From the NCBI RefSeq assembly GCF_009914755.1, contig NC_060925.1: a stretch of 64,000 nt of DNA; one strand, written 5' to 3'. Below the pieces are notes generated by a model, which did no database searches, was not told where the DNA came from, and saw only the letters and a list, made by a program, of their open reading frames with translations. Below are positions 23,506 to 42,040 of this stretch, piece by piece; the stretch's first letter is position 1, and the number at the start of each line of letters is the position of its first letter. The stretch comes from the human T2T-CHM13v2.0 reference genome, Homo sapiens. Both the position numbers and the translations under genes were made by a program.

Positions 23506-24676
23506 TGAAGGTTCTATTTTTAAAAGGATTTTTCTGAAACCTAAATCCCTTGAAAATAATACAGCTGTCATGACCTGTTACCATCTTAAGGATTTGGAGG
23601 AAGAGAGCCATGGTTTGGAATAGAACATGAACGAGTGCAGAGGAGTGGAAATTACCACAGTTTGTTCTGAAGACTGGATACAGCGGCACCTTCCTGGAGC
23701 AGTGGTACCCCTTAAAGGTGAAGGGAACGTGGGTGTTGCAACAGAGGACCATTATCAAGAAGACTCTTTTGGGTTTGGTCTGAGAGGCACTGGGAAACCT
23801 CTTAAACTTGAGTAAGGTAGAGTCTTGACTCAAAGTAATAAATTGGCAAAAAACTCCACACCCCTATATTTTAAAATGCTATTCATTTACTCAGTAGATA
23901 TTTCTCCAGTGTCTAATACTTAAGGTACTGAGCTAGGCACTGCAAATTCATAGTGAGCAAACACATTGTTCCTGTTCTTATGTAATTTACAGTCTAGTGG
24001 TAGAGAAAGATTTTAATCATATAATTATAGTAAATGTAAAATTATACTCTGGTGGTTATTATGAAAAAGGAGTACAAATATAACAAATCAGCAAGTGGTA
24101 TGTAAAATTGCAGTGGAGAATGACTCAATGCTAGGAGACCAGTGAGAAAACTCTAGTAATCACCTAGACATAGGTTAGTGAGAACATGACCCACACTGAA
24201 TGCAGGCTGTGAATATGAATCAAGACAGAGCTCAGGTGCCTTTGTTTTGCCCTAGTTAGTGGGAAGGAGGGAATCAGGTTACCATGGATTTACTTAGACG
24301 AAGCAAAATAGTTTCTTTTCTCAATAGGGAGCCATGGGAGAATGTCCCAGTGGGAATATCAGGGTTGGGGTTGAGCAAGAAAATTTGTTAAAATTCTCAT
24401 ATGTTCAAGTACAATAGAAATCATTCCATTGATAATATGAATCCAAAATATCCAATACTGTTATGTAAGATTGCCTGGAGGGCTGCTGTATTTGCATCTG
24501 TTTGTCTGTGTCATCATCATCATCTGCTAACTAAAAATGATACAATTCCTACTCCTCATCTGCTGATGGAAGAGGTTGTTGGCAGTAACTAAAATTTGTA
24601 TAGTGATGAAAAATACAAGTAGATATTTAAAGAGTCAATATTTGGGTCTAAATGTATACATCACATTGAAAATTCT

Positions 24677-24971
24677 TTCTTTTTTTTTTGAGACAGAGTC
24701 TCACTCTGTTGCTCGGTCTAGAGTGCAGTGGTGCGATCTCGGCTCACTGCAACCTCCACCTCCCAAGTTTGAGCGATTCTCTTGCCTCAGCCTCCCAAGT
24801 AGCTAGGACTACAGGCATGCACCACCATGCCTGGCTAATTTTTGTATCTTTAGTAGAGATGGGGTTTCACCATGTTGGCCAGGCTGGTTTTGAACTCCTG
24901 ACTTCAGGTGATCCGCCCACCTTGGCCTCCCAAAGTGCTGGGATTACAGGCGTGAGCCACTGTGCCCTGCC
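24677..24971 (-). mobile_element. AluS-like inside NUMT ND5
   Basis: TSD cacattgaaaattct (24662-24676 / 24972-24986). Confidence 0.95.
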
Positions 24972-25061
24972 CACATTGAAAATTCTATGATTGACCATGT
25001 GATGAAGAGTGCTACTAGTACAGATATCATTGAGAAGTAATGTAACTTGGGGATGAGTGTC

Positions 25062-38736: not shown

Positions 38737-39505
38737 AGTCCAGTGTTGAGAATGTTGGTGCAAGTCAGAGGGAAAAAGGTTGATAGTATAACAAGTAATG
38801 ATAGAAAGAATGTTTTGTATTTTTGAATTGTCTCTTTGTTTTCATGTTGTTGGTTGTTGGGAATATTGTTAATGATGCTCAACATCACTAACAATTGTAT
38901 ATAAAAATGTAAGTTGAATAATGCATGATAACTATAAATTTTGGTATAATAATGCTATTTTGGGGGTTAATTCCAGAATAATGATTAATTTGGGTAAAAA
39001 TCCTGTAAGTGGTGATTGTAACCCTAAAGATAATAGGATTATAAGGATTGTGGAAGTTATTAGTGATAATTTATTTTATGTATGTGGAAGTGATAATGTT
39101 GTGATAGTTGTGTTTAAACTGAATATTATGAATACAGTAATTTTTAGTATAATGTAAATTCGTAGACAAGATTATTGTAATTGATGAATAGGTTAAGTTT
39201 TTTTGTCATTGTGTCTGATTTAGTCCTCAGCCTCCTACAAGAATTAATATTATAGCAATGATTGGTATTATGTTTAGGTCAATTGATGATACTTGGAGTA
39301 GAATTGAAATTGGTACCCGTTTTGGTCATGTTAATGGGATTATGCCTGATATTAGTGGATTTCCTTCTGTTATTTCTGGGACTCAAAAATGGAATGGGGA
39401 GAGTCCAAGTTTTATAACTAGTGCCACAGTAATTATTAGGGATGCTGTTGGGTTGGGGATTTTTATGATTGTTCATTACCCAGAGTATAATGTATTAATA
39501 ATAAT
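38737..39505 (-). pseudogene. NUMT ND2 (5' ~70 codons missing)
   Basis: MKLGLSPFHFWVPE..LTW.K..LVGGWGLNQTQ..PLTGFLPK. Confidence 0.93.
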
Positions 39506-40671
39506 AGCAAGTTATTCAGAAGATTTGGCTAAGGTCATTGATGAAGGTAGCTATGCTAAACAACATTTTCAATGTACATGAAACAGCCTTATATCAGAAG
39601 AAGATGCCATCTAGGACTTTCATAGCCAGAGAGGAGAAGTCAATGCCTGGCTTCAAAGCTTCAAAGGACAGGCTGACTCTCTTGATAGGGCCCAATGCAG
39701 CAGGTAATTTTAAGGTGAGGCCCATGCATTTACCATTGTGAAAATCCTAGGGCCCTTAAGAACTCTCCTAACTCTACTCAGCCTGTGCTCTATAACTGGA
39801 ACAACAAAGTCTAGGTGACAGCACATCTGTTTACAGAATGGTTTACTGAATATTTTAAGCGCACTTTTGAGACCTTCTGCTCAGAAAAAAAGATTCCTTT
39901 TAAAATATTACTGCTCATTGACAATGCACTTGGCCAACCAAGAGCTCTGACAGAGATGTACAAGGAGATTAATGTTATGTTCATGCCTGCTAACACATCC
40001 ATTCTGCATCCCATGGGTCAAGGGGTCAATTTGACTTTCAAAGTCTTATTATTTAAGATACATTTTGTAAGGCTATAGCTGCCACAGACAGTGACTCCTC
40101 TGAGGTATCTGGACAAACTAAATTGAAAACTTTCTGGAAAGCATTCACCATTCTGGATGCTACTAAGAACATTCATGATTCTTGGGGGGAAGTCAAAATA
40201 TCAACATTAACAGGAGTTTGGAAGAAGTTGATTCCAACCCTCATGGATGACTTTGTTGGGTTTAAGATGTCAGTAGAGAACATAGCTGCATGTGGTGCAA
40301 ATAGCAAGAGAACTAGAAGTAGAACCTCAAGATGTGACTGAATTGCCAAAGCCACCCCAACTTTCAGCAACCACCACCCTGATCAGTCAGCAGCCATCAA
40401 CATGGAGGCAACATCCTCTACCAGCAGAAAGATTGACTTGTGGAAGGCTTAGATGATTGTTAGCATTTTTTAGCAATACATTGTTTTAAAATATAGGTAT
40501 GTGCATTTTTAAGGTCTAATACTATTGCACACTTAATAGACAATAGTATAGTGCAAATATAACTTTTATATGCACTGGGAAGTGAAAGAATTTGTGTGAC
40601 TCAATTTATTGTGATACTTCTTTATTGCAGTGGTCTGGAACTGAATCCTCAATATCTCTCAAGTATGCCTG
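39506..40671 (+). mobile_element. Tigger1 DNA transposon, 3' portion with right TIR
   Basis: pogo-like DDE remnants ([44 protein letters not shown]); ends ...aagtatgcctg followed by TA. Confidence 0.95.
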
Positions 40672-42040
40672 TAGTTAGAAACCAACCTGGATTGCTCCTA
40701 TCTGAATGCATATCACATAGGACTTTAATTGTTAAACAAATGAACAATTAACAATGTTTACGTCAAAGGGATGTTCTGATTCAACATCAAAGTTGTAAAT
40801 CCTATTGTCAATATGGACTCTAGAATAGGATTACACTGTTATTCCTAGGGTAACTTTTTCTGTTGATTGAATTGTTTGGGTCAGTTGATGATTATGCTAC
40901 TTCAACTGGATAGGTCTAAGTGTTAATCATTTGGAGGTTATGTTGTGCTCTGAGGTCACCCCAGCTGAAAGTTTTAGTCCAGTAAGTACAGTGTTATGCT
41001 TTATAATTGGGTTGTTTGCTTTTATATGGTCTCATTAATTTAACCTTCATAGGGTCATCTTGTCTTATTTTTATATCCTTGCCTCTTCATGTGAAGGCCA
41101 ATTTCATGGAAAGTAAGAGACAGTTAATCCTTCCTGTGGCCATTCATTCAAGTTCCTATTTAGGGAACCAGTGATTATGTTGCCTTTGCATGGTCAGGAG
41201 ACCAAAGCTGTTAAACATGTCACTGAGTAGGCAGTGCCTCTAATACTAGGTTGCTAGAGGTGATGTTTCATTAAACAGGTGGCATTTGTGTTTGCTGAGA
41301 TCCTTTTACTTTTTGAGATCTTTCCTTAGGTGCATGCCTGTGTTGTGTTAATAATTATTTGAATAAACAGTCAATTAATTAATTTAGTTTTCTTTAGTCA
41401 TTAACTATCAGTGGATATCCGATCTAAGTTTCTGCAAGGAGATTTTGTTTCTTGTTATTTATATTAACAGTATTTCTTCTGGTTATAAATAGGTTAATCA
41501 GTAAAATGTTAGGGGCTTATGGAAATAGTTGGGATTAAGATATCAGAATTGCTGGGCTTGAATGAGTTCTTAATTAGTGGCTGGCTACTTTTAAGCCACC
41601 TATGACAATTTAATAACTTACACTTTATTAAAAATTATTTCTTGTTTATAAAGAGGTGTCCCTTTTTAGATTAACACTTAAACTTACATTAAGATTAACA
41701 TTTCTTTAGGTGAATTTAAAGTTGAACTGAAATTCTATTCTGAATAACCAGCTATCACCATATTTGGCTGACTTTTCACCTCTACTCAGGGATTTTCTTA
41801 CTATTTTTGCTACATTCATGAGTTCTTACAACCATCCATGAGTATCCTGTCTAATTTCAGTGTTTTTAGCTAAAGTTCTCTTTATGAAGTTGTTCTAGTT
41901 AATTCATTATGCGAGAAGTATAAGCCATTAGGTTTGCTTTTTAAATTTATCTTTCCCTTATGGTACTTTTTCCATAGCATGTAAAGAAATTTCTGTCTCC
42001 TATACTTTTTGTTGTGAGTGAATGTTTTGTTCTAAATAAA
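40672..42040 (-). pseudogene. NUMT 16S rRNA (MT-RNR2-like), most of the gene
   Basis: reverse complements of conserved 16S motifs (TTAAAGTCCTA.GTGAT..; CCCTAGG.ATAACAG; TGACC.TGCAAAGG; TAGCTGGTT.T.CAGAA). Confidence 0.95.

What the first reader, a model, noticed from the sequence alone, without database searches (positions are those of the whole stretch)
24345..42040. An ~11-kb colinear mitochondrial genome fossil with pre-simian protein sequences
Seen: ten protein genes, 13 tRNAs, OL and 16S in exact reverse mt order. Residues match generic eutherian/prosimian-type rather than human sequences (human in brackets, from memory): COX2 [17 protein letters not shown] [MAHAAQVGL..ELITFHDH], THTSTMD..EVET [TNTNISD..EMET], HFENWS [IFEMGP]; ATP8 LDTSTWFIT [LNTTVWPTM]; COX1 FIN..GMV..DDQI [FAD..GVL..NDHI]; ND5 YSGQE [CLDQE]. 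Established: simian OXPHOS subunits, especially COX2, evolved rapidly. Inference: one insertion froze a stem-primate or stem-haplorhine mt genome from before that burst. Pieces are probably annotated as separate MT pseudogenes; the value is in treating it as a single datable ancestral genome.
Basis: partly seen in the sequence, partly recalled or inferred. Interest (0 to 1): 0.8.

Follow-up and report, generated by a model that had tools for sequence, protein, structure and literature searches.

The report
Old catalogued mitochondrial DNA fossil, chr1
This is a real but already catalogued piece of mitochondrial DNA that entered the nuclear genome around the origin of primates, before monkey and ape mitochondrial proteins began to change quickly, and it is now a broken, non-functional fossil.

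Summary
Window 24354-42060 (minus strand) carries 16S, ND2, COX1, COX2, ATP8, ATP6, COX3, ND3, ND4L, ND4 and ND5, plus 13 tRNAs and OL, in mitochondrial order.

It is interrupted by eight Alus or Alu fragments (a ninth sits in the L1), a 5.5-kb L1, a CHCHD2 retrocopy and a Tigger1-type DNA transposon. ND1 and about 730 bp of COX1 are deleted.

It is not new. It is HSA_NumtS_014 in the RHNumtS/UCSC compilation, listed there as one assembled locus (mt 1739-12883).

It predates the simian changes:
- At 24 cleanly polarised hominid-derived COX2 positions it has 11 ancestral and 1 derived state.
- Its nuclear decay at residues invariant across mammals (50/417) is two to three times that of eight stem-anthropoid NUMTs.
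- That decay equals the decay of the old Alus and the Tigger1 copy nested in it.

A second, independent NUMT on chr2 was captured from almost the same mitochondrial genome.

The exact node (stem primate, stem haplorhine, early stem anthropoid or pre-primate) could not be fixed. No tarsier, monkey COX2, colugo or lemur mtDNA and no orthologous loci were reachable.

Verdict: an ordinary kind of feature, a known locus, and a useful old example.

The parts
24354..25060 (-). Distal retained ND5 (mt ~12586-12883), split by an S-like Alu at 24684-24960
   Evidence: Aligns to ND5 of the chr2 and chr5 NUMTs. RHNumtS pieces 1-2. Alu divergence 17/245.
25060..25930 (-). CHCHD2 processed retrocopy with A-tail, nested in ND5. 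Carries an Alu left-monomer fragment at 25106-25218 (+).
   Evidence: Hub annotation CHCHD2P5. Bases 25230-25930 match the parent exons on C7:56.26 Mb at 74-87% and 12 or more other retrocopies at 73-77%. Monomer 10/101 from the old-Alu consensus.
26034..26252 (-). ND5 5' part
   Evidence: Matches ND5 residues 30-78 of solved complex I chains. YSGQE at 26104.
26248..26441 (-). tRNA-Leu(CUN) 26248-26316, tRNA-Ser(AGY) 26320-26374, tRNA-His 26380-26441
   Evidence: Local alignment to chr5-NUMT tRNAs: 52/69, 39/55 and 47/62 identical, each above 200 of 200 shuffles.
26561..26835 (-). S-like Alu inserted between tRNA-His and ND4
   Evidence: Rfam SRP-like hits. 15/243 non-CpG differences from the young-Alu consensus.
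26846..27817 (-). ND4 (MTND4P11)
   Evidence: Pfam Proton_antipo_M on two open pieces. Aligns to ND4 of the chr2 and chr5 NUMTs. Hub annotation.
27818..28370 (+). Old (J-type by inference) Alu at 27818-28076, plus a further Alu-like fragment at 28257-28368
   Evidence: 29/221 from the old-Alu consensus and 35/225 from the young one. Rfam SRP-like hits.
28437..29047 (-). ND4L (28437-28589), tRNA-Arg (28569-28632), ND3 (28647-28977), tRNA-Gly (28978-29047)
   Evidence: ND4L residues 3-43 in solved structures. tRNAs 51/63 and 50/68 identical. MTND3P21 in the hub annotation.
29048..29646 (-). COX3 (MTCO3P21), interrupted by an old Alu at 29169-29370 (+)
   Evidence: Pfam COX3 on the C-terminal piece. 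Alu 18/175 from the old consensus.
29667..30805 (-). ATP6 (29667-30350) and ATP8, the latter split by an old Alu at 30481-30758 (+)
   Evidence: ATP synthase subunit a residues 1-77. LDTSTW at 30795. Alu 30/239 from the old consensus.
30806..31972 (-). tRNA-Lys (partial, 30806-30852), COX2 (30876-31830, with an S-like Alu at 31392-31633), tRNA-Asp (31834-31898), tRNA-Ser(UCN) (31907-31972)
   Evidence: Pfam COX2 and COX2_TM. 120 mammalian COX2 hits. tRNAs 36/47, 50/64 and 50/65 identical. Alu 12/218.
31975..32566 (-). COX1 3' part (from about residue 312)
   Evidence: Pfam COX1, profile positions 282-376. tblastn to human COX1 residues 312-463.
32567..38025 (+). L1 element with an A-rich 3' tail. 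It replaces ~730 bp of COX1 and carries an S-like Alu at 37636-37925.
   Evidence: Junction sequences read directly. ORF2-like frames on the + strand. The 39 other copies scored are 84-89% identical over ~960 bp.
38026..38733 (-). COX1 5' part (38026-38218), tRNA-Tyr, Cys, OL (38349-38384), Asn, Ala, an Alu monomer fragment (38559-38693) and a partial tRNA-Trp (38694-38733)
   Evidence: ARAGORN mitochondrial mode finds Tyr at 38219-38282. OL 32/36. Tyr 50/55, Cys 48/67, Asn 51/67, Ala 52/67, Trp 31/40 identical.
38734..39505 (-). ND2 from about codon 80 to its end
   Evidence: Matches ND2 residues 84-186 of solved chains. Pfam Proton_antipo_M.
39506..40672 (+). 3' half of a Tigger1-type DNA transposon with an intact 3' terminus followed by TA. 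Its 5' half and mt ~3107-4698 are deleted. It also has a ~310-bp internal deletion.
   Evidence: 29 other genomic copies end at the same base followed by TA, and they continue leftwards where the window turns into ND2. 119/1149 differences from their consensus. Weak Pfam DDE_1. The family name is recalled from the terminal repeat.
40673..42060 (-). 16S rRNA (mt ~1739-3106, perhaps a little further 5')
   Evidence: Rfam LSU rRNA hits. 69.9% identity over 1292 bp to the chr17 NUMT 16S. RHNumtS piece 10. Bases 41900-42060 still hit other NUMTs.

Best explanation
This is one ancient nuclear copy of mitochondrial DNA (NUMT), already catalogued as HSA_NumtS_014.

Origin (inferred). A single ~11-kb mtDNA fragment (16S to ND5) was captured at a chromosome break in the germ line of a human ancestor. 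This presumably happened by end joining, as for NUMTs in general.

Timing (shown relative to other events; absolute date inferred). Capture came at about the origin of primates, roughly 60-85 million years ago. It came before any of the amino-acid replacements that mark the anthropoid lineage in COX1 and COX2.

Later history (shown). The copy decayed as neutral nuclear DNA.
- Soon after capture it received a Tigger1-type transposon in the 3' end of 16S, a CHCHD2 retrocopy in ND5, and several old Alus and Alu monomers.
- One deletion then removed the 5' half of the Tigger together with ND1 and its neighbours.
- In anthropoid times an L1 insertion replaced ~730 bp of COX1, and S-type Alus landed.

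It has no function. Its only value is as a frozen sample of the mitochondrial genome from before the simian OXPHOS changes.
For: Identity. RHNumtS lists HSA_NumtS_014 at hg18 chr1:94158319-94175887, minus strand, mt 1739-12883, ten pieces at 64.7-77.9%.

One insertion.
- All pieces have the same strand and strict mitochondrial order.
- Gene by gene over seven genes, its distance to a hominoid-age NUMT equals that of the chr2 NUMT. Third positions: COX2 104/203 vs 104/203, ND4 173/360 vs 191/360, ND5 80/161 vs 84/161.
- The Tigger between 16S and ND2 has a true transposon terminus plus TA against 16S, and a broken internal end against ND2. One insertion plus one deletion explains the ND1 gap.

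Pre-anthropoid states.
- At 24 cleanly polarised hominid-derived COX2 positions the window has 11 ancestral, 1 derived, 6 other and 6 uncovered. The chr17 NUMT has 1 ancestral and 20 derived; the chr5 NUMT has 0 and 24.
- It is ancestral at Y3, F5, H22, M87, M100, M148, S149 and V214, all already changed in younger NUMTs.
- COX1 Q52 and E481 are ancestral where New World monkeys, Old World monkeys and human share H and K.
- Bit scores favour non-primate chains over the human chain: COX2 149.5 vs 124.5, ND5 47.9 vs 25.8, ND2 110 vs 97.6, ATP6 67.1 vs 59.9. The organisms of these entries are recalled.

Age by nuclear decay, at first and second codon positions of residues invariant in 180 COX2 and 101 COX1 proteins.
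- Window 50/417 = 0.120.
- chr2 NUMT 26/215 = 0.121.
- chr10 NUMT 40/655 = 0.061.
- Eight mid-aged NUMTs 0.035-0.062.
- chr17 NUMT 21/660 and chr5 NUMT 6/588.

Nested elements have nearly the same decay.
- Tigger copy 119/1149 = 0.104.
- Three old Alus 0.103-0.131 from their own consensus.

Dating of those elements.
- The Fig. [quoted passage not shown]
- Oliveira 2012 (PMC3517439, passages) puts the TIGGER1 expansion before the placental radiation.
- Giordano 2007 (PMC1914374, passages) puts it near the divergence of mammalian orders.
Against: - The node is not fixed. No tarsier, colugo, tree-shrew or lemur mtDNA, no monkey COX2, and no orthologous locus from another species could be reached.
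- The decay estimate is uneven (COX1 35/241 vs COX2 15/176), and its 95% range is wide (about 0.09-0.15).
- Converting decay to years rests on neutral branch lengths that I recall, not on a call.
- If TIGGER1 really stopped before the placental radiation, the NUMT would be older than primates.
- The COX2 tree that joins the window and the chr2 NUMT to lemurs (SH-like 0.90) rests mostly on states that xenarthrans also have. Only A13 is lemur-specific, and 6 non-lemur sequences have it too.
- ND4L scores best against the human chain (35.3 bits).
- The window shows COX1 I452, the anthropoid state, although chr2 and chr10 are ancestral there.
- End joining as the capture mechanism is inferred from NUMTs in general. 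No junction feature was tested.
Confidence: 0.8

Rival explanations
1. The NUMT is older than primates. It would have been inserted in a stem euarchontogliran or boreoeutherian ancestor (about 85-100 million years ago or more), so it freezes a generic early placental mitochondrial genome rather than a primate one.
For: - A Tigger1-type element was inserted into it. Oliveira 2012 places the TIGGER1 expansion before the placental radiation, and Giordano 2007 places it near the divergence of orders.
- Its decay is 2-3 times that of NUMTs that already sit on the anthropoid stem.
- Best COX2 matches are xenarthrans and squirrels, not primates.
- Three of its four 'lemur-like' states are also xenarthran.
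Against: - Its decay (0.120) is no greater than that of the primate-specific old Alus nested in it (0.103-0.131) or of the old-Alu group as a whole (mean 0.118).
- COX2 A13 is shared by the window, the chr2 NUMT and 22 of 22 lemurs, but by only 6 of 147 other mammals.
Confidence: 0.2
2. The NUMT was inserted after the tarsier split, early on the long anthropoid stem, just before the first COX2 replacements.
For: - It lacks only anthropoid-lineage changes; nothing ties it positively to an earlier node.
- DNA transposons stayed active until some time after tarsiers diverged.
- The lower 95% bound of its decay (~0.09) overlaps the upper anthropoid stem on recalled branch lengths.
Against: - Its decay is about double that of the chr10 NUMT (0.061), which already records the earliest anthropoid-lineage changes (H3, L9, I31, I148, P149).
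- Its decay equals that of old Alus and Tigger1.
- The independent chr2 NUMT gives the same figure (26/215).
Confidence: 0.18
3. The locus is a composite of two or more separate mitochondrial insertions, for example the 16S block arriving independently of the ND2-ND5 block.
For: - 16S is separated from ND2 by non-mitochondrial DNA, and 1.6 kb of mtDNA is missing between them.
- The homogeneity test against chr2 covers only COX2-ND5.
Against: - The two blocks have the same strand and colinear order.
- Identity to the chr17 NUMT is similar for all blocks, 67-73%.
- The spacer is a transposon whose true terminus plus TA lies inside 16S sequence, and whose other end is an internal break. That is what one insertion plus one deletion predicts.
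- Two independent hits within 1.2 kb in matching order and strand would be a rare coincidence.
Confidence: 0.05
4. The chr1 locus and the chr2 NUMT are duplicates of one original NUMT, not independent captures.
For: - They are each other's closest relatives (73-76% identity).
- They share states such as COX2 A13, S91 and S93.
Against: - Their mitochondrial ends differ. chr2 runs ~760 bp further into ND5 and starts only in late COX1.
- The window's left flank has no second copy in the genome.
- At invariant sites both differ at 3 of 207 positions (2.05 expected by chance), and only 1 of those is the same base.
- No nested repeat is shared.
Confidence: 0.04

Closest known systems
HSA_NumtS_014 of the RHNumtS.2 compilation / UCSC NumtS track (Simone et al. 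2011, PMC3228558; Calabrese et al. 2012, PMC3314570; supplements searched)
   Same: It is this locus: chr1, minus strand, 17,569 nuclear bases, mt 1739-12883, ten aligned pieces assembled as one NUMT.
   Different: The compilation gives coordinates and identities only. In the passages I saw there is no age, no nested-repeat history and no protein-state analysis.
The 45-55-million-year burst of human NUMTs (Gherman et al. 2007, PMC1925129; abstract and passages)
   Same: Same kind of element and the same neutral fate. The eight mid-aged NUMTs used here behave like that burst (decay 0.035-0.062).
   Different: This one is about 70% rather than 82-88% identical to modern mtDNA. It has 2-3 times the nuclear decay and lacks the COX1/COX2 changes those NUMTs already carry.
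The large NUMT at G000 C2:202030046-202039045 (chr2), found here
   Same: Colinear over COX1-ND5, the same decay (26/215), and ancestral at all covered early anthropoid COX2 changes. Its distance to the window is nearly flat over codon positions (0.253/0.233/0.297).
   Different: Different mitochondrial ends, different chromosome, and no shared nested repeats.
Pre-eutherian human NUMTs (Huang and Frith 2025 preprint; abstract and section 3.5 read)
   Same: Old NUMTs dated by orthology across mammals. This is the method that would settle this locus.
   Different: Those are mostly short and highly degraded. This one is 11 kb in span and still 65-78% identical to mtDNA. The preprint's supplement could not be opened, so I cannot say whether this locus is in its tables.

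Membership tests
NUMT (nuclear copy of mitochondrial DNA) | Similarity to mtDNA across several genes, in mitochondrial gene order | tested here: met
   Ten protein genes, 16S, 13 tRNAs and OL in order.
NUMT (nuclear copy of mitochondrial DNA) | Embedded in chromosomal DNA with non-mitochondrial flanks | tested here: met
   The left flank 23520-24350 is single-copy nuclear DNA. The right flank beyond ~42060 is non-mitochondrial. The window lies between GCLM and ABCA4 (hub annotation).
NUMT (nuclear copy of mitochondrial DNA) | Decay as a pseudogene: stops, frameshifts, and equal change at all codon positions | tested here: met
   Frames are broken throughout under code 2. 50/417 changes at sites invariant in mammals. 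Near-flat codon-position distances to the chr2 NUMT.
NUMT (nuclear copy of mitochondrial DNA) | Insertion by end joining, without target-site duplication or poly-A tail | not tested
   The outer junctions were not analysed. No pre-insertion allele was available.
HSA_NumtS_014 (RHNumtS) | Same chromosome, strand, extent and mitochondrial coordinates | tested here: met
   hg19 chr1:94385731-94403299 spans 17,569 bp, against window 24354-41922. The pieces match my alignments.
   COX2: 11 ancestral and 1 derived of 18 covered clean positions. COX1: Q52 and E481 ancestral where monkeys and human share H and K.
   Only COX2 A13 links it to lemurs. Tree support of 0.90 rests largely on ancestral states. 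No tarsier, colugo or tree-shrew data.
   No other primate genome is held.
Tigger1 (Tc1/mariner-type DNA transposon), for the element at 39506-40672 | Terminal inverted repeat end flanked by TA; many dispersed copies; DDE transposase remnant | tested here: met
   29 other copies end at the same base plus TA. At least 40 copies scored at 80-85%. Pfam DDE_1 only weak, E 0.003 and below the cut-off. The family name itself is recalled from the terminal sequence; no repeat library was available.

The most novel reading that the evidence does not exclude
The chr1 locus and the chr2 NUMT are two independent captures, within a few million years of each other, of the mitochondrial genome of a stem or early crown primate.

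Where the two agree, nuclear decay cancels out. About 5.6 kb of that ancestral genome (late COX1 to ND5) can therefore be read with internal replication.

Together with the chr10 NUMT, eight stem-anthropoid NUMTs, and the chr17 and chr5 NUMTs, they form an ordered series inside the human genome. In that series:
- 0 of 24 clean hominid COX2 replacements are present in the chr2 and chr10 NUMTs (1 in the window);
- 3-5 of 24 are present in the four fully covered stem-anthropoid NUMTs;
- 20 of 24 are present in chr17.

The tempo of the anthropoid OXPHOS acceleration could then be read from one genome.
Probability: 0.45. Interest if true: 0.45.

Novelty: already known. Interest (0 to 1): 0.27.

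Why it matters
Mitochondrial proteins of monkeys and apes changed unusually fast, and ancestral states on that lineage are hard to infer because mtDNA saturates. An old NUMT evolves slowly in the nucleus, so it keeps states from before the change.

This locus is one of the largest old ones and has an independent twin on chr2. The pair could serve as a replicated outgroup-free anchor for ancestral reconstruction and for calibrating when the COX2 and COX1 replacements happened.

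The nested Tigger1, old Alus and retrocopy also make it a compact example of how repeat stratigraphy dates a locus.

None of this changes what is known about NUMTs in kind, and the locus itself has been in public catalogues since at least 2011.

Tried and rejected
Reference sequences.
- The own-genome copy has 24 contigs and no chrM. Two searches returned no NUMT above 89% identity, so no modern human mtDNA was at hand. I used a hominoid-like NUMT on chr5 (COX2 intact, 96% identical to human COX2) and a chr17 NUMT as references.
- To fish monkey and tarsier COX2 I searched with a profile of NUMT-derived COX2 pieces. The first alignment mis-stacked the fragments. The search returned only human, gorilla and generic mammals, and used the last protein search. 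COX2 therefore lacks monkeys and tarsier.

Decay estimate.
- A first estimate from tblastn frames was inflated by frameshifted stretches. It was replaced by DNA projection onto codon maps.

Trees and alignments.
- IQ-TREE with bootstraps timed out; FastTree was used instead.
- A MAFFT --auto run timed out and was redone with faster settings.
- Raw similarity of the window/chr2 agreement sequence ranks slow-evolving xenarthrans and squirrels above lemurs. It says nothing about clade, so I did not use it.

Flanks.
- I checked them for a split older repeat that would give a maximum age. The left flank is unique and the right has only weak old-repeat matches.

Literature.
- No paper dating this locus was found. 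Searches covered the pseudogene names (1 unrelated paper), 'numts' + 'GCLM' (1 unrelated paper), and general NUMT terms.
- Supplements of PMC5703718, PMC10764098 and PMC5059674 had no entry at these coordinates or under this id.
- Gunbin 2017 covers only 0-6 million years (outline).
- Pace and Feschotte 2007 was not held.
- bioRxiv supplements are closed, so Huang and Frith's table may list this locus.

Full report
**What is there.**
On the minus strand of window 24354-42060 lies a colinear copy of mitochondrial DNA running from 16S (right end) to ND5 (left end).
- Pfam recognises COX1, both COX2 domains, COX3, and the antiporter-type domain of ND2 and ND4. That is 8 of 16 open pieces, counting a weak DDE_1; 8 short pieces matched nothing.
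- Solved structures name ND5 residues 30-78, ND4L 3-43, ATP synthase subunit a 1-77 and ND2 84-186.
- Rfam finds large-subunit rRNA.
- ARAGORN finds no tRNA in bacterial mode and only tRNA-Tyr in mitochondrial mode.
- Aligning the tRNAs and light-strand origin of two younger NUMTs recovers all 13 tRNAs and OL in order. Each scores above all 200 shuffles; Trp and Lys are partial.

**What is missing or inserted.**
- The mitochondrial span is 11.1 kb, but about 8.4-8.8 kb survives.
- mt ~3107-4698 is gone (tRNA-Leu, ND1, three tRNAs and the first ~80 ND2 codons), as are ~730 bp of mid-COX1.
- The rest of the 17.7 kb is made of later insertions:
  - eight Alus or Alu fragments in the mitochondrial sequence, and a ninth inside the L1;
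  - a CHCHD2 retrocopy in ND5, spanning about 25230-25930, which is longer than annotated;
  - a 5.5-kb L1 with an A-rich tail that replaced the missing COX1 stretch;
  - the 3' half of a Tigger1-type DNA transposon between ND2 and 16S.

**It is already known.**
- The supplement of Simone et al. 2011 lists this locus as HSA_NumtS_014: hg18 chr1:94158319-94175887, minus strand, 17,569 bases, mt 1739-12883, ten pieces at 64.7-77.9% identity, assembled as one NUMT.
- Calabrese et al. 2012 give the hg19 coordinates.
- I found no paper that dates it. The searches and supplements are listed under Tried and rejected. The supplement of the Huang and Frith preprint could not be opened.

**One insertion or several.**
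- All blocks share strand and order.
- Over the seven genes that overlap a second old NUMT on chr2, the window and that NUMT stand at the same distance from a hominoid-age NUMT, gene by gene.
- The one real gap in colinearity is explained by the Tigger.
  - Its right end is the true terminus of the element. 29 other genomic copies end at the same base, followed by TA, after which they diverge into unique flanks.
  - That terminus abuts 16S sequence at a TA.
  - Its left end is an internal break where the other copies continue.
- The simplest history is that the transposon inserted into the NUMT's 16S, and one deletion later removed its 5' half together with the adjoining 1.6 kb of mtDNA.
- I put a composite origin at about 5%.

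**How old: protein states.**
- The protein database gave 180 mammalian COX2 sequences (22 lemur, 5 hominid) and 101 vertebrate COX1 sequences, including 5 New World monkeys, 7 Old World monkeys and human.
- Other NUMTs of the same genome serve as samples of the human mitochondrial lineage at other times.
- I used the 24 COX2 positions where hominids differ from a state shared by lemurs and other mammals. Counts are ancestral / derived:

| NUMT | Ancestral | Derived | Other | Uncovered |
|---|---|---|---|---|
| window | 11 | 1 | 6 | 6 |
| chr2 | 17 | 0 | 2 | 5 |
| chr10 | 20 | 0 | 3 | 1 |
| four fully covered mid-aged NUMTs | 14-18 | 3-5 | 3-6 | 0-1 |
| chr17 | 1 | 20 | 3 | 0 |
| chr5 | 0 | 24 | 0 | 0 |

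- In the wider list of 60 hominid-specific positions, chr10 already has H3, L9, I31, I148 and P149. The window has Y3, M31, M148 and S149, and chr2 has F9, V31, M148 and S149.
- In COX1 the window keeps Q52 and E481 where both monkey groups and human share H and K. It shows I452, the anthropoid state, where chr2 and chr10 are ancestral.
- Bit scores against solved chains tell the same story for COX2, ND5, ND2 and ATP6, but not for ND4L, where the human chain scores best. Entry organisms are recalled.

**How old: nuclear decay.**
- Residues invariant across the protein sets cannot have changed while the gene was mitochondrial. Changes at their first and second codon positions therefore measure decay since insertion.
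- The figures are:
  - window 50/417 = 0.120 (COX1 35/241, COX2 15/176);
  - chr2 26/215 = 0.121;
  - chr10 40/655 = 0.061;
  - eight mid-aged NUMTs 0.035-0.062;
  - chr17 0.032;
  - chr5 0.010.
- The mid-aged NUMTs keep COX1 Q52 and A139 (7 of 7 covered each), where New and Old World monkeys share H and P. They already have K481 (8 of 8). They therefore sit on the anthropoid stem, in line with the 45-55-million-year burst of Gherman et al. 2007 (passages).
- The window has two to three times their decay.
- The elements nested in the window have almost the same decay as the window:
  - Tigger copy 119/1149 = 0.104 from the consensus of 29 copies, whose own mean is 0.103;
  - three full-length old Alus at 0.103-0.131, and two monomers at 0.099 and 0.160, from the old-Alu consensus;
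  - the CHCHD2 retrocopy at 74-87% identity to the parent exons.
- S-like Alus stand at 0.055-0.069, and the L1 is 84-89% identical to its nearest copies.

**Reading the clock.**
- Dimeric Alus are primate-specific (established knowledge). A NUMT no more decayed than the old Alus inside it is unlikely to be much older than primates.
- The Fig. 1 legend of Schmitz et al. [quoted passage not shown] That fits.
- Against this, Oliveira et al. 2012 place the TIGGER1 expansion before the placental radiation (passages), and Giordano et al. 2007 place it near the divergence of orders (passages). A pre-primate date therefore keeps about 20%.
- On neutral branch lengths that I recall, a decay of 0.12-0.13 falls near the primate ancestor. 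The anthropoid ancestor would lie near 0.054, the tarsier split near 0.11 and the primate ancestor near 0.12. I give roughly 60-85 million years, with wide error.

**Is it specifically primate?**
- A FastTree COX2 tree joins the window and the chr2 NUMT, singly or as their agreement sequence, to six lemurs with SH-like support 0.90.
- Three of the four shared states (S149, A182, V64) also occur in xenarthrans and others, so they are probably ancestral.
- Only A13 is lemur-specific: 22 of 22 lemurs, against 6 of 147 other mammals.
- That is one site, though it is seen in two independent NUMTs.

**The chr2 twin.**
- The NUMT at G000 C2:202030046-202039045 covers late COX1 to ND5.
- It runs ~760 bp further into ND5 than the window and starts much later, so the ends differ.
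- The window's flank has no second copy in the genome.
- At invariant sites both NUMTs differ at 3 of 207 positions, against 2.05 expected by chance, and only one of those is the same base.
- They are therefore independent captures.
- Their distance is almost flat across codon positions: 302/1192, 279/1197 and 355/1194. The window against chr5 gives 0.30/0.20/0.48.
- Most of their difference is thus nuclear decay, and the two source genomes were very close in time.
Where the two agree, decay cancels.

**Verdict.**
- The locus and the idea are already known.
- The exact node remains open until orthologous sites and real primate mitochondrial genomes are compared.

Noticed in passing
L020+L024 (G000 C2:202030046-202039045): A second large old NUMT (late COX1 to ND5) with the same decay as the window's (26/215). 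Its distance to the window is nearly flat over codon positions. It looks like an independent capture of almost the same mitochondrial genome.
   Followed up: partly
L002 / L019+L023 (G000 C10:70457900-70462800): A NUMT that records an intermediate stage. COX2 already has H3, L9, I31, I148 and P149, but keeps F5, H22, V61, M87, M100 and V214. Decay 40/655.
   Followed up: partly
L004, L010-L016 (eight NUMTs on chr7, 11, 5, 4, 1, 11, 9, 2): These keep COX1 Q52 and A139 (7 of 7 covered each), although New and Old World monkeys share H52 and P139. They already have K481 (8 of 8). They therefore appear to predate the platyrrhine-catarrhine split.
   Followed up: partly
window 25230-25930: The CHCHD2 retrocopy matches the parent mRNA and other retrocopies over about 700 bp, not only the annotated 25530-25930. 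An Alu monomer and an A-run (25060-25218) lie at its 3' side.
   Followed up: partly
window ~40346: The Tigger1-type copy lacks about 310 bp that the other copies have between the parts matching 39506-40346 and 40341-40672.
   Followed up: no
G000 (own genome): The held assembly has 24 contigs and no mitochondrial contig. Two DNA searches returned no NUMT above 89% identity, so the well-known very young chr1 NUMT was not among the scored candidates.
   Followed up: no
P0121: The top hit of the COX1 search is a 399-residue metagenome protein with 200 bits but only 46% identity. It scores well above all animal COX1 (158 bits). This is unexplained and may be a scoring artefact of repeated matches.
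   Followed up: no
window 37267-37312: A dinucleotide microsatellite inside the L1 3' region. It matches similar runs in other loci at 100%.
   Followed up: no
window 42400-42540: A short stretch with about 12 weak matches (72-90% identity, 42-123 bp) elsewhere in the genome. It is probably an old interspersed repeat just outside the NUMT.
   Followed up: no
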